64,000 nucleotides of DNA. It comes from Escherichia coli (GTDB lineage Bacteria > Pseudomonadota > Gammaproteobacteria > Enterobacterales > Enterobacteriaceae). The stretch lies in NCBI RefSeq assembly GCF_003334355.1, contig NZ_QOWP01000019.1. One strand, given 5' to 3'. Within the stretch, counting starts at the first letter, position 1. Each line of letters starts with the position of its first letter. The notes under the pieces were generated by a model. That model did no database searches and was not told where the DNA came from. It saw nothing but the letters and a program-made list of their open reading frames with translations. The position numbers and the translations under genes were made by a program. This document shows positions 7,203-12,697 of this stretch, one piece after another.

Positions 7203-8351
7203 TTACCAGGCGGTATGGTAAAGCTCTACAATATCCTCAAGCGTTGCTTCACGCGGGTTGCCACCGGTACAAACATCATCCAGTGCCGCCTGCGCCAGTG
7301 CCGGAATGTCTTCCTTGCGTACACCAACATCACGCAAATGTGGCGGAATACCGACATCACGGTTGAGAGCAAACACCGCTTCAACAGCGGCATTACGCGC
7401 CTCTTCCAGGCTCATACCTTCCACTTTCACGCCCATAACGCGCGCGATATCGCGGTACTTCTCACCGGTAAAGTCAGCGTTATAACGCATGACATGCGGT
7501 AACAGGATGGCGTTCGCAACACCGTGTGGAGTGTTATAAAACGCGCCCAGTGGATGCGCCATACCATGCACCAACCCTAACCCAACATTCGAGAAGCCCA
7601 TACCCGCAACATACTGCCCGAGCGCCATTTCTTCTCCGGCATCCTTATCACCAGCAACCGATCCTCGCAGCGCCCCAGCAATGATTTCAATCGCTTTAAT
7701 GTGCAGTGCATCGGTTAGCGCCCACGCGCCACGGGTAATATACCCCTCAATAGCATGAGTGAGCGCATCGACACCCGTCGCAGCTTTCAGCGCTGGAGGC
7801 ATACCATCCATCATGTCAGCGTCAATAAACGCCACCTGCGGGATATCATGCGGATCAACGCAAACAAACTTGCGCCGTTTCTCTTCGTCAGTGATCACGT
7901 AGTTAATGGTCACTTCTGCCGCAGTACCTGCTGTGGTAGGAATTGCCAGAATCGGTACACTGGGTTTATTGGTCGGGGAAAGCCCTTCCAGGCTACGCAC
8001 ATCGGCAAACTCCGGGTTGTTGCTGATAATGCCAATCGCTTTACAAGTATCCTGTGGAGAACCACCACCAATAGCGATCAGGTAATCCGCGCCGCTATTC
8101 TGGAATACACCGAGCCCTTCTTTGACGACAGTAATTGTTGGGTTGGGCACTACGCCGTCGTAAATCGCCCATGCCAGCCCTGCAGCATCCATCTTATCGG
8201 TCACTTTCGCCACCACGCCGCATTGCACCAGCGTTTTATCGGTGACGATCAGCGCCTTCTGATAACCACGGCGTTTCACCTCATCGGTTAAAGCCCCAAC
8301 AGCACCCCGACCAAACCATGCCGTTTCGTTCAGAATCATTCTGTTAGCCAT
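7203..8351 (-). CDS. fucO: L-1,2-propanediol oxidoreductase (lactaldehyde reductase)
   Basis: Iron-type alcohol dehydrogenase ORF recognised as FucO; two adjacent in-frame ATGs, so the start is 8351 or 8354. Confidence 0.93.
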   Translation of the reverse strand: MANRMILNETAWFGRGAVGALTDEVKRRGYQKALIVTDKTLVQCGVVAKVTDKMDAAGLAWAIYDGVVPNPTITVVKEGLGVFQNSGADYLIAIGGGSPQDTCKAIGIISNNPEFADVRSLEGLSPTNKPSVPILAIPTTAGTAAEVTINYVITDEEKRRKFVCVDPHDIPQVAFIDADMMDGMPPALKAATGVDALTHAIEGYITRGAWALTDALHIKAIEIIAGALRGSVAGDKDAGEEMALGQYVAGMGFSNVGLGLVHGMAHPLGAFYNTPHGVANAILLPHVMRYNADFTGEKYRDIARVMGVKVEGMSLEEARNAAVEAVFALNRDVGIPPHLRDVGVRKEDIPALAQAALDDVCTGGNPREATLEDIVELYHTAW

Positions 8352-8378
8352 CATCCTTCTCCTTGTTGCTTTACGAAA

Positions 8379-9026
8379 TTACTCTTCAATCCGTAACCCA
8401 TAGGTTTTGAATTTCTCCAGCACTACGGCAATCTCTTCATCGCTCAGCACTGGCACCGGGTCCGTAATCGCCAGGGTCGTCAGGTAAAGTTGCGCCAGCA
8501 CTTCAACTTCATGCGCCAGCCATAACGCTTTTTCCAGATTCACCTCACAAGCGATAAGCCCATGATGTTGTAACAAAGTTGCCTTACGATTTTTGAGAGC
8601 CAGCGCAACATGTTCAGAAAGTTCGCGTGTTCCAAAGGTCGCATAAGGCGCGCAAGGAATAGAATTACCACCTGCCGCCGCAATCATGTAGTGAATAGCG
8701 GGGATCGGTCGGTTAAGAATGGAAACTGCTGTGCAATGAACGGCATGATTGTGAACAACCGCGTTGGCATCCGGTCTGCTTTGATAGGCCGCCATATGGA
8801 AACGCCATTCGCTTGAGGGGAGCTTTCCTTCCTCATGTTTACCGTTGCCATCAATAAAGACAATATGCGACTCCGTCAGTTTTTCATATGGAATGCCTGT
8901 AGGCGTAATCAGCATCCCATCCTGATAACGTACACTGACGTTCCCCGCTGTCCCCTGGTTCAGTCCCAGGCGGGTCATTTCCAGGCAAGTGTCAATAATC
9001 TGACGAGCAAGTTTATTTCGTTCCAT
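8379..9026 (-). CDS. fucA: L-fuculose-1-phosphate aldolase
   Basis: 215-aa class II aldolase ORF recognised as FucA. Confidence 0.95.
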   Translation of the reverse strand: MERNKLARQIIDTCLEMTRLGLNQGTAGNVSVRYQDGMLITPTGIPYEKLTESHIVFIDGNGKHEEGKLPSSEWRFHMAAYQSRPDANAVVHNHAVHCTAVSILNRPIPAIHYMIAAAGGNSIPCAPYATFGTRELSEHVALALKNRKATLLQHHGLIACEVNLEKALWLAHEVEVLAQLYLTTLAITDPVPVLSDEEIAVVLEKFKTYGLRIEE

Positions 9027-9572
9027 TAGCTACCTCTCTCTGATTCAAAACAGGGCAATAATGTTGTTCCTTTCACACTATTGAATTAGCCGTTTAATTA
9101 CCCACCATCTTCTTCCTGATTAACCAGAAAGAAATTCACAAGCTTATATTTTGTGACATGGTTCAACTAATCACAGTAAATAACTGCAAGTTCTCTTTTT
9201 ATAACCCCATTAAAAATGACCGCTCTTAAAAATATTTATCAAAACGGTCATTTTTCTATTCACCCAAGCCAGGAATGCCCGTTTTCGGCATAAACAATTA
9301 ATACGGTCATCTGGTTTGTGTTTTTTATGATTTATTTTCTGAAACGGGCATGAAATTTCGATTATTAAAGTGATGGTAGTCACATAAAGTCACCTTCCAG
9401 CTAATAAGTGTGACCGCCGTCATATTACAGAGCGTTTTTTATTTGAAAATGAATCCATGAGTTCATTTCAGACAGGCAAATATTCACTGATATGAAGCCC
9501 GAACTCGCTGGTTTTGCACTTTTGAAAACATAACCGATTACGTGCTTAAGCTTCTGAACCTAAGAGGATGCT
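9027..9572. promoter_or_regulatory. Divergent fucAO / fucPIK control region
   Basis: 546-bp AT-rich spacer between divergent operons; contains an 11-bp perfect inverted repeat (9213-9223 / 9245-9255) and a CRP-like site agtgatggtagtcaca at 9369-9384. Confidence 0.6.
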
Positions 9573-10889
9573 ATGGGAAACACATCAATACAAACGCAGA
9601 GTTACCGTGCGGTAGATAAAGATGCAGGGCAAAGCAGAAGTTACATTATTCCATTCGCGCTGCTGTGCTCACTGTTTTTTCTTTGGGCGGTAGCCAATAA
9701 CCTTAACGACATTTTATTACCTCAATTCCAGCAGGCTTTTACGCTGACAAATTTCCAGGCTGGCCTGATCCAATCGGCCTTTTACTTTGGTTATTTCATT
9801 ATCCCAATCCCTGCTGGGATATTGATGAAAAAACTCAGTTATAAAGCAGGGATTATTACCGGATTATTTTTATATGCCTTGGGCGCTGCATTATTCTGGC
9901 CCGCTGCAGAAATAATGAACTACACCTTATTTTTAGTTGGCCTATTTATTATTGCAGCCGGATTAGGTTGTCTGGAAACTGCCGCAAACCCTTTTGTTAC
10001 GGTATTAGGGCCAGAAAGCAGTGGTCACTTCCGCTTAAATCTTGCGCAAACATTTAACTCGTTTGGCGCAATTATCGCGGTTGTCTTTGGGCAAAGTCTT
10101 ATTTTGTCTAACGTGCCACATCAATCGCAAGACGTTCTCGATAAAATGTCTCCAGAGCAATTGAGTGCGTATAAACACAGCCTGGTATTATCGGTACAGA
10201 CACCTTATATGATCATCGTGGCTATCGTGTTACTGGTCGCCCTGCTGATCATGCTGACGAAATTCCCGGCATTGCAGAGTGATAATCACAGTGACGCCAA
10301 ACAAGGATCGTTCTCCGCATCGCTTTCTCGTCTGGCGCGTATTCGTCACTGGCGCTGGGCGGTATTAGCGCAATTCTGCTATGTCGGCGCACAAACGGCC
10401 TGCTGGAGCTATTTGATTCGCTACGCTGTAGAAGAAATTCCAGGTATGACTGCCGGCTTTGCCGCTAACTATTTAACCGGAACCATGGTGTGCTTCTTTA
10501 TTGGTCGTTTCACCGGTACCTGGCTCATCAGTCGCTTCGCACCACACAAAGTCCTGGCCGCCTACGCATTAATCGCTATGGCACTGTGCCTGATCTCAGC
10601 CTTCGCTGGCGGTCATGTGGGCTTAATAGCCCTGACTTTATGCAGCGCCTTTATGTCGATTCAGTACCCAACAATCTTCTCGCTGGGCATTAAGAATCTC
10701 GGCCAGGACACCAAATACGGTTCGTCCTTCATCGTTATGACCATTATTGGCGGCGGTATTGTCACTCCGGTCATGGGTTTTGTCAGTGACGCGGCGGGCA
10801 ACATCCCCACTGCTGAACTGATCCCCGCACTCTGCTTCGCGGTCATCTTTATCTTTGCCCGTTTCCGTTCTCAAACGGCAACTAACTGA
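9573..10889 (+). CDS. fucP: L-fucose:H+ symporter (MFS)
   Basis: 438-aa membrane ORF recognised as FucP; RBS aagagga upstream. Confidence 0.95.
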   Translation: MGNTSIQTQSYRAVDKDAGQSRSYIIPFALLCSLFFLWAVANNLNDILLPQFQQAFTLTNFQAGLIQSAFYFGYFIIPIPAGILMKKLSYKAGIITGLFLYALGAALFWPAAEIMNYTLFLVGLFIIAAGLGCLETAANPFVTVLGPESSGHFRLNLAQTFNSFGAIIAVVFGQSLILSNVPHQSQDVLDKMSPEQLSAYKHSLVLSVQTPYMIIVAIVLLVALLIMLTKFPALQSDNHSDAKQGSFSASLSRLARIRHWRWAVLAQFCYVGAQTACWSYLIRYAVEEIPGMTAGFAANYLTGTMVCFFIGRFTGTWLISRFAPHKVLAAYALIAMALCLISAFAGGHVGLIALTLCSAFMSIQYPTIFSLGIKNLGQDTKYGSSFIVMTIIGGGIVTPVMGFVSDAAGNIPTAELIPALCFAVIFIFARFRSQTATN

Positions 10890-10921: not shown

Positions 10922-12697
10922 ATGAAAAAAATCAGCTTACCGAAAATTGGTATCCGCCCGGTTATTGACGGTCGTCGCATGGGTGTTCGTGAGTCGCTTG
11001 AAGAACAAACAATGAATATGGCGAAAGCTACGGCCGCACTGCTGACCGAGAAACTGCGCCATGCCTGCGGAGCTGCCGTCGAGTGTGTCATTTCCGATAC
11101 CTGTATCGCGGGTATGGCTGAAGCCGCTGCTTGCGAAGAAAAATTCAGCAGCCAGAATGTAGGCCTCACCATTACGGTAACGCCTTGCTGGTGCTATGGC
11201 AGTGAAACCATCGACATGGATCCAACCCGCCCGAAAGCCATTTGGGGCTTTAACGGCACTGAACGTCCCGGCGCTGTTTACCTGGCAGCGGCTCTGGCAG
11301 CTCACAGCCAGAAAGGCATCCCGGCATTCTCCATTTACGGTCATGACGTTCAGGATGCCGATGACACATCGATTCCTGCCGATGTTGAAGAAAAACTGCT
11401 GCGCTTTGCCCGCGCCGGTTTGGCCGTCGCCAGCATGAAAGGTAAAAGCTATCTGTCGCTGGGCGGCGTTTCGATGGGTATCGCCGGTTCCATCGTTGAT
11501 CACAACTTCTTTGAATCCTGGCTGGGAATGAAAGTCCAGGCGGTGGATATGACCGAACTGCGTCGCCGTATCGATCAGAAGATTTACGACGAAGCCGAAC
11601 TGGAAATGGCACTGGCCTGGGCTGATAAAAACTTCCGCTATGGCGAAGATGAAAATAACAAACAGTATCAACGCAATGCCGAGCAAAGCCGCGCAGTTCT
11701 GCGCGAAAGTTTACTGATGGCGATGTGTATCCGCGACATGATGCAAGGCAACAGCAAACTGGCCGATATTGGTCGCGTGGAAGAATCACTTGGCTACAAC
11801 GCCATCGCTGCGGGCTTCCAGGGGCAACGTCACTGGACCGATCAATATCCCAATGGTGACACCGCCGAAGCGATCCTCAACAGTTCATTTGACTGGAATG
11901 GCGTGCGCGAACCCTTTGTCGTGGCGACCGAAAACGACAGTCTTAACGGCGTGGCAATGCTAATGGGTCACCAGCTCACCGGCACCGCTCAGGTATTTGC
12001 CGATGTGCGTACCTACTGGTCACCAGAAGCAATTGAGCGTGTAACGGGGCATAAACTCGATGGACTGGCAGAACACGGCATCATCCATTTGATCAACTCA
12101 GGTTCTGCTGCGCTGGACGGTTCCTGTAAACAACGCGACAGCGAAGGTAACCCGACGATGAAGCCGCACTGGGAAATCTCTCAGCAAGAGGCTGACGCTT
12201 GCCTCGCCGCTACCGAATGGTGCCCGGCGATCCACGAATACTTCCGTGGCGGCGGTTACTCTTCCCGCTTCCTTACCGAAGGCGGCGTCCCGTTCACCAT
12301 GACTCGTGTCAACATCATCAAAGGCCTGGGACCGGTACTGCAAATCGCGGAAGGCTGGAGCGTGGAATTGCCGAAGGATGTGCATGACATCCTCAACAAA
12401 CGCACCAACTCAACCTGGCCAACCACCTGGTTTGCACCGCGCCTCACCGGTAAAGGGCCGTTTACGGATGTGTACTCGGTAATGGCGAACTGGGGCGCTA
12501 ACCATGGGGTTCTGACCATCGGCCACGTTGGCGCTGACTTTATCACTCTCGCCTCCATGCTGCGTATCCCGGTATGTATGCACAACGTTGAAGAGACCAA
12601 AGTGTATCGTCCTTCTGCCTGGGCTGCGCACGGCATGGATATTGAAGGCCAGGATTACCGCGCTTGCCAGAACTACGGCCCGTTGTACAAGCGTTAA
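10922..12697 (+). CDS. fucI: L-fucose isomerase
   Basis: 591-aa ORF recognised as FucI. Confidence 0.96.

What the first reader, a model, noticed from the sequence alone, without database searches (positions are those of the whole stretch)
9027..9572. fuc divergent control region: 11-bp perfect inverted repeat and CRP-like site
aaaaatgaccg (9213-9223) and its exact reverse complement cggtcattttt (9245-9255) form a widely spaced inverted repeat, and ggtcat/ggcat-like motifs recur nearby (for example 9304-9309). These are candidate FucR (DeoR-family) operators. A CRP-type site agtgatggtagtcaca lies at 9369-9384.
Basis: partly seen in the sequence, partly recalled or inferred. Interest (0 to 1): 0.3.

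Follow-up and report, generated by a model that had tools for sequence, protein, structure and literature searches.

The report
E. coli fucose operon control sites
This is the well-studied switch region between the two divergent fucose-utilisation operons of E. coli; the inverted repeat is a pair of binding sites for the fucose activator FucR and the "CRP-type" site is a known CRP site, so the finding is correct but largely ordinary.

Summary
The window carries the E. coli fuc regulon (fucO-fucA | 546-bp intergenic | fucP-fucI-fucK-fucU-fucR). The left arm of the inverted repeat is the published, mutationally validated FucR site OFucR3. The recurring ggtcat/ggcat motif is the core (CGG[T/G]CAT) of the published FucR DAP-seq consensus. 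The site at 9369-9384 fits OCrp1, the upstream CRP site of the fucPIK promoter, by position.

Comparison of 47 enterobacterial fucA-fucP regions adds detail. There are five FucR sites. Module 1 keeps a fixed distance to the CRP site of PfucAO. Module 2 and site 5 keep a fixed distance to the CRP sites of PfucPIK. Only the hinge between the modules varies in length.

The right arm is the best-conserved FucR site of all, yet no held paper prints it as a site. A published truncation lacking it keeps about 70% of PfucAO activity.

The arms do not co-vary, so they are protein half-sites, not a hairpin. Verdict: supported, already known in outline, low interest, with a modest new architectural detail.

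The parts
8379..9026 (-). fucA (L-fuculose-phosphate aldolase), first gene of fucAO
   Evidence: ORF; NCBIfam TIGR01086 and NF005984
9059..9080 (.). OCrp3, a weak CRP site in the fucA 5'UTR (mutation costs about 30% of activity)
   Evidence: Sequence given in PMC11011485, mapped. The CRP scan detects it only in the Escherichia rows, so it is not seen as a CRP site outside that genus.
9089..9099 (-). PfucAO transcription start (9089, 63 nt upstream of the fucA ATG) and -10 element (9094-9099, AATTAA on the minus strand)
   Evidence: 5'RACE result in PMC11011485; mapped to the window
9149..9170 (.). OCrp2, the essential CRP site of PfucAO, centred at -70.5 from the start site
   Evidence: Mutation causes a 14- to 350-fold loss; mapped. 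TGTGA-N6-TCA is conserved in nearly all species.
9212..9222 (.).
9215..9229 (-). FucR site 1 = published OFucR3 (TTAAGAGCGGTCATT on the minus strand); core 9216-9222
   Evidence: Mutation causes a >50-fold loss of fucose induction; mapped. The core is canonical in 20 of 47 species.
9238..9252 (+). FucR site 2 (ATCAAAACGGTCATT); core 9245-9251. It is contained in the right arm of the repeat (9245-9255). Not printed as a site in any held paper.
   Evidence: Perfect match to the DAP-seq consensus. Canonical in 42 of 47 species and 20 of 20 genus groups. Always 92-94 bp from the start of OCrp2.
9216..9251 (.). Module 1: ATGACCG-N22-CGGTCAT (sites 1 and 2)
9274..9288 (-). FucR site 3 = published OFucR2 (CCGAAAACGGGCATT here; K-12 has ..GGTCATT); core 9275-9281
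   Evidence: The difference from K-12 at 9278 falls on the degenerate T/G position.
9297..9311 (+). FucR site 4 (ATTAATACGGTCATC); core 9304-9310.
9275..9310 (.). Module 2: ATGCCCG-N22-CGGTCAT (sites 3 and 4)
9316..9326 (.). Conserved block TTGTGTTTTTT (consensus CTGTGGGTTTT), exactly 29 bp before the core of site 5; function unknown
   Evidence: Invariant columns G292 T293 G294 T297-299 in alignment A1. A canonical FucR left arm occupies this position in 4 of 7 Photorhabdus species.
9338..9352 (+). FucR site 5 (TCTGAAACGGGCATG); core 9345-9351. It sits 24 bp before the OCrp1 core.
9366..9387 (.). Inferred position -81.5 relative to PfucPIK.
   Evidence: Placement follows from the IS5 target and the V3/V4 truncation end-points.
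9401..9404 (.). IS5 target 'ctaa', between OCrp1 and OCrp0. K-12's CTAG at 9397-9400 is CCAG in this strain.
   Evidence: PMC11894529; the difference at 9398 is
9406..9427 (.). CRP site OCrp0 (aagTGTGAccgccgTCAtAtta); inferred position -41.5 relative to PfucPIK
   Evidence: Sequence in PMC11894529; mapped; conserved
9445..9458 (+). Inferred PfucPIK -10 element (GAAAAT, 9445-9450) and start site (T at 9458)
   Evidence: Inference. The block TTTGAAAATGAATTCATGAGTTCATT is conserved. The paper says the fucP start is a 'T' within 100 bp of the IS5 site. 9458 would place OCrp0 at -41.5.
9573..10889 (+). fucP (L-fucose:H+ symporter), first gene of fucPIKUR
14697..15437 (+). fucR, the DeoR-family L-fucose operon activator that reads the sites
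   Evidence: NCBIfam NF007720, 508 bits

Best explanation
The 546-bp interval is the shared control region of the divergent fucAO and fucPIKUR operons.

What the sites are. The 11-bp inverted repeat is two half-sites for the activator FucR (DeoR family, active when bound to fuculose-1-phosphate). Each half-site has the form AAACGG[T/G]CAT[T]. The two face away from each other with their cores 29 bp apart (ATGACCG-N22-CGGTCAT). Together they form module 1 of a five-site FucR array that spans 9215-9352.

How the array is laid out. Module 1 (sites 1 and 2) sits at a fixed distance from CRP site OCrp2 and so belongs to the PfucAO unit. Module 2 (sites 3 and 4) and site 5 sit at fixed distances from CRP sites OCrp1 and OCrp0, and so belong to the PfucPIK unit.

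How it works. When fucose is metabolised, FucR bound to fuculose-1-phosphate occupies the array and helps CRP-cAMP, bound just promoter-proximal, to recruit RNA polymerase at both weak promoters.

Shown (published): site 1 and site 3 are functional for PfucAO, and OCrp2 is essential. Both papers cite earlier work that OCrp0 and OCrp1 serve PfucPIK.

Shown here: the motif is enriched, there are five sites, the spacings are invariant, and the arms do not co-vary.

Inferred: the 36-bp module is the unit bound by one FucR oligomer across an AT-rich, probably bent spacer. Site 2 contributes affinity or cooperativity rather than being strictly required.
For: Gene identities.

Published consensus and mutagenesis: PMC11011485 and PMC11894529, mapped to the window.

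Enrichment: 5 cores in 136 bp against 0.12 expected. The module pattern occurs 2 times in the window and 0 times in 100 shuffles.

Conservation: the invariant columns of the 16-genome alignment A1 coincide with the FucR cores and the CRP half-sites, while the spacers vary.

Spacings over 47 species:
- OCrp2 to site 1: 63-65 bp
- site 1 to site 2: 28-30 bp
- site 3 to site 4: 28-30 bp (29 in 44 of 47)
- site 4 to site 5: 40-42 bp
- site 5 to OCrp1: 24-25 bp (22 in one species)
- OCrp1 to OCrp0: 39-40 bp
- site 2 to site 3: 11-144 bp, the only variable interval

Other contexts: the module lies upstream of fucA in Edwardsiella, and as a single stand-alone module in Serratia sp. DD3. FucA-paralog loci that lack fucP mostly carry no site; 20 of 34 have none.

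Promoters: there is no consensus sigma-70 promoter in the region, which fits activator dependence.
Against: Truncation V6 (-206 relative to fucA, i.e. starting at window 9232) removes site 2 and site 3 yet keeps about 70% of fucose-induced PfucAO activity. The pair is therefore not obligatory for activation under full induction.

A biosensor study reported no cooperativity for FucR (PMC10046853).

Site 1, the experimentally critical arm in E. coli, is canonical in only 20 of 47 species.

No FucR footprint, oligomeric state or structure was available. phmmer against PDB sequences found no homologue at E<=1e-5.

The sequence of OCrp1 and the fucP start site are not printed in any held paper; their assignment rests on position and conservation.
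Confidence: 0.85

Rival explanations
1. The two arms are independent FucR sites that happen to be inverted. The repeat has no function as a unit: each 15-bp site binds FucR on its own, and the 29-bp spacing is inherited rather than selected.
For: V6, which carries site 1 alone, keeps about 70% of PfucAO activity. Mutating site 1 abolishes induction even though site 2 is intact. No cooperativity was seen in a FucR biosensor. The 11/11 arm match is confined to Escherichia; elsewhere 5-10 of 11 positions match.
Against: The within-pair spacing is 28-30 bp in two separate modules across 47 species, and holds in lineages where the inter-module distance changed from 11 to 144 bp. A third canonical pair with the same 29-bp spacing exists in Photorhabdus. 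A lone module exists in Serratia sp. DD3. The exact module pattern is absent from 100 shuffles of the window.
Confidence: 0.3
2. The inverted repeat acts through nucleic-acid structure, as a hairpin, cruciform or terminator-like element, rather than as protein binding sites.
For: As single-stranded DNA the 58-nt stretch folds at -9.6 kcal/mol, z = -5.3. The region lies in a published stress-induced duplex destabilisation (SIDD) zone (PMC5493358). In Serratia sp. DD3 the module follows a co-directional gene and ends in a T-run.
Against: The repeat lies between the two divergent start sites (9089 and about 9458), so it is not transcribed in the wild type. The degenerate T/G position of the two arms is concordant in 25 and discordant in 27 distinct modules, so there is no covariation. 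What is conserved is a specific sequence, not pairing. The 22-nt AT-rich loop is unfavourable for a hairpin. No terminator-like site and no Rfam match were found.
Confidence: 0.02
3. The repeated motif is read by a regulator other than FucR, for example SrsR, H-NS or another DeoR-family protein.
For: SrsR genomic SELEX gave a peak in this intergenic region (PMC9181523). The region is AT-rich (36% G+C) and is reported to be transcriptionally repressed.
Against: The proposed SrsR box (gCtGgTTTTGC) is a different sequence lying in the fucP 5'UTR, and SrsR had no effect on fucAO. The motif equals the FucR DAP-seq consensus, and mutation of two copies removes FucR-dependent induction. Clusters of sites lie upstream of fucA only where a fucP or fucP-like gene lies alongside; 20 of 34 FucA-paralog loci carry no site and nearly all of the rest a single one.
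Confidence: 0.03

Closest known systems
Published map of the E. coli K-12 fucPIK/fucAO intergenic region (Zhang, Saier et al., IJMS 2024, PMC11011485; NAR 2025, PMC11894529; FucR DAP-seq motif of Baumgart et al. 2021; CRP sites of Podolny et al. 1999)
   Same: It is the same locus: the window differs from K-12 at 9 of 546 positions. OFucR3 overlaps the left arm. OFucR2 is site 3.
   Different: The papers speak of 'four known' FucR sites and print the sequences of only two. Five canonical sites are present here. The pairing into 36-bp modules, the two rigid blocks, and the fact that site 2 is the best-conserved site are not stated in the held texts. In this strain site 3 reads GGGCAT (K-12 GGTCAT) and the K-12 IS5 target CTAG reads CCAG.
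Operators of other DeoR-family regulators (DeoR 16-bp palindromes with looping; GlpR tandem 20-bp operators; AgaR, UlaR). This comparison is from general knowledge and was not tested here.
   Same: Multiple repeated sites are spread over more than 100 bp and are read by an oligomeric sugar-phosphate-sensing regulator. The fucR product scores against the GlpR, AgaR, SrlR, UlaR and DeoR models.
   Different: FucR activates rather than represses, and its sites lie far upstream (about -110 to -190), not over the promoter. Its motif is an asymmetric 11-15-mer. Half-sites are inverted with 22 bp between the cores, not contiguous palindromes.
Divergent or CRP-co-dependent sugar regulons with a specific activator upstream of CRP (rhaBAD/rhaSR with 17-bp inverted half-sites 16-17 bp apart; malEp-malKp nucleoprotein complex; araBAD). 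This comparison is from general knowledge.
   Same: Weak promoters without consensus hexamers, CRP at class I / class II-like positions, and a specific activator bound to widely spaced repeats further upstream.
   Different: The activator belongs to a different family (DeoR here, AraC/XylS or MalT there). Here CRP lies between the activator and RNA polymerase at both promoters.

Membership tests
FucR operator (E. coli fuc regulon) | Match to the published FucR consensus [GA][CT][CG][AC][AG][ATC][AT]CGG[TG]CA[TA][TCG] | tested here: met
   The right arm, ATCAAAACGGTCATT, matches at 15 of 15 positions. The left arm (TTAAGAGCGGTCATT) is the published OFucR3. Five cores occur in 136 bp.
FucR operator (E. 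coli fuc regulon) | Located in the control region of FucR-regulated operons, in a genome that encodes FucR | tested here: met
   The sites lie between fucA and fucP, and fucR is at 14697-15437.
FucR operator (E. coli fuc regulon) | Mutation of the site removes FucR- and fucose-dependent activation | not testable with these tools
   Published for the left arm (OFucR3, >50-fold loss) and for site 3 (OFucR2, about 30% loss). No data exist for the right arm alone. Truncation V6, which lacks both the right arm and site 3, loses only about 30%.
FucR operator (E. coli fuc regulon) | Direct binding by FucR (footprint, EMSA or DAP-seq peak) at these coordinates | not testable with these tools
   The DAP-seq paper (Baumgart 2021) is not held. 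It is known here only through its citation in PMC11011485.
FucR operator (E. coli fuc regulon) | Conservation of the site in orthologous fuc control regions | tested here: met
   Site 2 is canonical in 42 of 47 species and site 1 in 20 of 47. The spacing is 28-30 bp throughout.
CRP-cAMP binding site | Match to TGTGA-N6-TCACA | tested here: met
   AGTGAtggtagTCACA matches 9 of 10 core positions.
CRP-cAMP binding site | Conserved half-sites with a freely varying spacer in orthologues | tested here: met
   [A/G]GTGA-N6-TCACA is present in 47 of 47 species; it lies 24-25 bp after site 5 in 40 of the 47, where the automatic scan picked site 5, and 39-40 bp before OCrp0.
CRP-cAMP binding site | Position compatible with activation (class I or tandem) relative to a mapped start site | tested here: inconclusive
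   The centre is 9376.5, which is -81.5 only if the fucP start is T9458. That start site is inferred from OCrp0 at -41.5 and a conserved -10 element. The held papers say only that the start is a 'T' within 100 bp of the IS5 site.
CRP-cAMP binding site | Experimental CRP binding or function at this site | not testable with these tools
   Both held papers state that OCrp0 and OCrp1 are important for fucPIK, citing Podolny 1999 and Chen 1987. Those papers are not held.
Intrinsic terminator / structured RNA | G+C-rich stem, short loop, T-run, lies in a transcribed region, pairing maintained by covariation | tested here: not met
   No terminator-like site and no Rfam match. The loop is 22 nt. The repeat lies between divergent start sites. 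The degenerate arm position is concordant in 25 and discordant in 27 modules.

The most novel reading that the evidence does not exclude
The functional FucR operator is not a single 15-bp site but a 36-bp module (ATGMCCG-N22-CGGKCAT) bound by one FucR oligomer across an AT-rich spacer of fixed length. The fuc control region would then be two rigid nucleoprotein units joined by a flexible hinge: CRP plus module 1 for fucAO, and module 2 plus site 5 plus two CRP sites for fucPIKUR. It would have an unrecognised role, for example setting induction sensitivity at low FucR levels or nucleating FucR binding.
Probability: 0.45. Interest if true: 0.35.

Novelty: already known. Interest (0 to 1): 0.2.

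Why it matters
The fuc regulon is a classic model for dual control by CRP and a specific activator. It is also a model for IS5-mediated 'directed' activation, and it matters for gut colonisation on mucin-derived fucose.

The comparative result could be useful to specialists. It comprises five sites, two fixed-geometry inverted modules, a variable hinge, and a best-conserved site that the current model omits. It gives a concrete, cheap test of how a DeoR-family activator engages DNA, which has no structural or footprint description in what I could reach. It may also help explain why IS elements are found at particular points of this region.

Tried and rejected
Papers not held. Podolny 1999, Zhang 2010, Zheng 2004 and Baumgart 2021 could not be read. 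The CRP footprints and the DAP-seq peak list therefore could not be checked directly.

Literal sequence search. Searching 8 million papers for the OCrp1 core and for the FucR core found only PMC11011485, and that hit was for OFucR2. The NAR 2025 supplements contain no FucR site sequences.

RNA or terminator reading. There was no Rfam match at E<=1 and no terminator-like site. The hairpin energy is a trivial consequence of the repeat.

SrsR. Its proposed box is a different sequence elsewhere in the region.

Structures. FucR has no sequence homologue in the PDB at E<=1e-5. I did not run structure prediction, because a monomer model would not give the spacing of the DNA-binding domains.

A third module for site 5. 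The conserved block at 9316-9326 sits at exactly the position where a left arm would be, but it scores negative with the FucR matrix everywhere except 4 of 7 Photorhabdus species. I left it as unexplained.

DeoR-family operator structures. A literature search gave nothing relevant.

Full report
**1. What is in the window**

ORFs and NCBIfam equivalogs identify the following genes:
- fucO, 7203-8354, minus strand
- fucA, 8379-9026, minus strand
- fucP, 9573-10889, plus strand
- fucI, 10922-12697
- fucK, 12776-14224
- fucU, 14226-14648
- fucR, 14697-15437

The stretch 8379-10889 is 100% identical to E. coli O121 RM8352 and matches, at least in part, in all 5,426 complete E. coli genomes searched; 5,018 carry at least 80% of it. 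It has 36% G+C, against 51% for the whole window.

**2. Checking the observation**

Every quoted string is present once:
- AAAAATGACCG is at 9212-9222.
- CGGTCATTTTT is at 9245-9255.
- AGTGATGGTAGTCACA is at 9369-9384.
- GGTCAT is at 9305-9310.

A perfect repeat of at least 11 bp with a gap of 40 bp or less arises in 1% of Markov shuffles of the region, and about seven such loci occur in the window. Alone it is weak evidence.

The recurring motif is much stronger evidence. The core CGG[TG]CA[TA] occurs five times in 136 bp against 0.12 expected (Poisson 2e-7), and none of 20,000 shuffles reached five. The paired pattern WTGMCCG-N22-CGGKCAW occurs twice in 64 kb, both times here, and never in 100 shuffles.

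**3. What the literature already says**

Zhang, Saier and co-workers dissected this exact region.

FucR sites:
- They quote the FucR DAP-seq consensus of Baumgart et al. 2021: [GA][CT][CG][AC][AG][ATC][AT]CGG[TG]CA[TA][TCG].
- They mutated two sites upstream of PfucAO.
Its mutation lowers fucose-induced promoter activity more than 50-fold.
- OFucR2 is the reverse complement of 9274-9288. Its mutation costs about 30%.

CRP sites:
- OCrp2 is at 9149-9170 and is essential.
- OCrp3 is at 9059-9080.
- OCrp0 is at 9406-9427.
- All three map exactly to the window.

The PfucAO start site found by 5'RACE is 63 nt upstream of the fucA ATG, at window 9089.

The sequence of OCrp1 is not printed in the held papers, but its position is constrained:
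- It lies on the fucA side of the IS5 target (ctaa, 9401-9404).
- It is retained by truncation V3 (-377) and lost by V4 (-339).
- The only CRP-like site in that interval is 9366-9387.

**4. What comparison adds**

I fetched 80 loci encoding FucA relatives from one genome per species. Forty-six of them have a divergent fucP.

*Five sites in a conserved arrangement.* A plain scan for the core motif shows the same arrangement from Escherichia to Yersinia and Photorhabdus. In window coordinates the 15-mers are:
- site 1, 9215-9229, minus strand
- site 2, 9238-9252, plus strand
- site 3, 9274-9288, minus strand
- site 4, 9297-9311, plus strand
- site 5, 9338-9352, plus strand

*Footprints in the alignment.* In a 16-genome alignment the invariant columns fall on these cores and on the CRP half-sites, while the sequence between them drifts. 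The flanking AAA upstream of CGG and the T after CAT, which were not used to select the sites, reproduce the DAP-seq consensus.

*Fixed and variable spacings*:

| Interval | Distance (bp) |
|---|---|
| OCrp2 to site 1 | 63-65 |
| site 1 to site 2 | 28-30 |
| site 3 to site 4 | 28-30 (29 in 44 of 47) |
| site 4 to site 5 | 40-42 |
| site 5 to OCrp1 | 24-25 (22 in one species) |
| OCrp1 to OCrp0 | 39-40 |
| site 2 to site 3 | 11-144 |

The site 2 to site 3 distance is 23-30 bp in Enterobacteriaceae, 37-52 bp in Yersinia and 19 bp in Photorhabdus. Several of the fixed distances were measured in narrow search windows. The unconstrained scan and a search of +/-15 bp for site 2 (always 92-94 bp from OCrp2, but 104-147 bp from OCrp1) give the same answer.

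*Two rigid blocks.* The region therefore consists of two blocks joined by a hinge:
- Module 2, site 5, OCrp1, OCrp0 and PfucPIK.

*The module in other contexts:*
- It occurs upstream of fucA in Edwardsiella, where the neighbouring transporter is only 43% identical to FucP.
- It occurs as a single stand-alone copy in Serratia sp. DD3, with 12-bp perfect arms.
- Of 34 FucA-paralog loci without a close fucP, 20 have no site at all, and apart from Edwardsiella and Serratia sp. DD3 the rest have a single isolated one.

**5. Protein sites, not a hairpin**

- The degenerate T/G position of the two arms is concordant in 25 and discordant in 27 distinct modules. The arms therefore evolve independently.
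- Arm complementarity is 11/11 only in Escherichia and 5-10 of 11 elsewhere.
- The spacer keeps its length (22 bp) and its AT-richness (79% in the central 14 nt, against 65% for the whole region) but not its sequence.
- The repeat lies between the two divergent start sites.
- There is no terminator-like site, no Rfam match and no consensus sigma-70 promoter.
- The predicted single-strand hairpin is a trivial consequence of the repeat.

**6. A tension worth stating**

Site 2, the right arm, matches the consensus perfectly. It is the best-conserved FucR site, canonical in 42 of 47 species and in 20 of 20 genus groups. Site 1 (OFucR3) is canonical in only 20 of 47 species.

Yet site 2 is not printed as a site in any held paper. 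The NAR paper speaks of 'four known' FucR sites, two of them 'putative' sites for PfucPIKR given without sequence. Five canonical sites exist.

Truncation V6 starts at -206 (window 9232). It lacks sites 2 and 3 and still gives about 70% of induced PfucAO activity. The inverted pair is therefore not obligatory under full induction at the lac locus. Its conserved geometry argues for a role the reporter did not probe, such as affinity, cooperativity at low FucR levels, or function in the native chromosomal context.

**7. Mechanism**

*Shown by others:*
- FucR with fuculose-1-phosphate, and CRP-cAMP, are both needed.
- Site 1 and OCrp2 are the critical elements for PfucAO.
- An IS5 insertion between OCrp1 and OCrp0 makes fucPIK non-inducible.

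*Shown here:* the array, its geometry and its conservation.

*Inferred:*
- Each 36-bp module is engaged by one FucR oligomer whose DNA-binding domains contact cores 29 bp apart across a bendable AT-rich spacer.
- FucR on the promoter-proximal sites (site 1 for fucAO, site 5 for fucPIK, each pointing its CATT end toward its promoter) stabilises CRP at OCrp2 (-70.5) and at OCrp1/OCrp0. The latter two are inferred to lie at -81.5 and -41.5 if the fucP start is T9458.

**8. Verdict**

The feature is already known in outline, so the interest is low. The modest new content is the module architecture and the neglected, best-conserved right arm.

Noticed in passing
window 9316-9326: A conserved block, TTGTGTTTTTT (consensus CTGTGGGTTTT in 16 genera; invariant G, T, G and TTT). 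It lies between FucR sites 4 and 5, exactly 29 bp before the core of site 5, which is where a module's left arm would sit. It does not score as a FucR site except in 4 of 7 Photorhabdus species, where a canonical site occupies the position. No factor is assigned to it in the papers read.
   Followed up: partly
L082 (E. coli QL57EC, NZ_CP172108.1), corresponding to window ~9258-9270: A natural isolate from swine carries an IS1 (777 extra bp) in the fuc intergenic region. It is inserted in the variable hinge between FucR site 2 and site 3, and so separates the fucAO block from the fucPIK block. The phenotype is unknown.
   Followed up: partly
window 9397-9400 (difference from K-12 at 9398): The K-12 IS5 hot-spot tetranucleotide CTAG (-374 to -371 from fucA) reads CCAG in this strain. 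The adjacent CTAA (9401-9404) is intact. This could alter IS5-mediated activation of fucAO in this lineage.
   Followed up: no
window 9027-9572 versus the E. coli genome collection: About 400 of 5,426 complete E. coli genomes lack the control region: the 196-bp array is found in 5,020 genomes. BL21(DE3) matches only a fucA-like fragment at 88% identity, which suggests the fuc locus has been lost or replaced in some lineages.
   Followed up: no
window 14579-14594: A CRP-like site, TGCGATCGTTATCACA (one mismatch), lies inside the 3' end of fucU, about 100 bp upstream of the fucR start codon. This would be compatible with a separate, CRP-influenced fucR promoter.
   Followed up: no
alignment A1 columns ~48-90 (corresponds to window ~9050-9085): OCrp3 is detected as a CRP-like site only in Escherichia. 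In 9 of the 12 non-Escherichia genomes in alignment A1 (including Klebsiella, Salmonella, Raoultella, Kluyvera and Citrobacter) the fucA 5'UTR instead carries an inverted repeat, CAACAG...CTGTTG, around an insert of variable length. This may be a 5'UTR hairpin.
   Followed up: no
window 9117-9141: The -35 hexamer 'TTGtgA at -96 to -91' given for PfucAO in PMC11011485 could not be found at those coordinates in K-12 or in this strain; the minus strand there reads TAATCA. The nearest TTGTGA on that strand is at -115 to -110, which is 36 bp from the -10 element. The -10 element and the start site do map as published.
   Followed up: partly
window 9434-9466 and 9549-9572: Two further strongly conserved blocks. 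The first is TTTTTTATTTGAAAATGAATTCATGAGTTCATT, the presumed PfucPIK -10 and start-site region. The second is GCTTCTGAACC.A.GAGGATGCT, immediately before the fucP ATG; it is longer than a ribosome-binding site would need.
   Followed up: no
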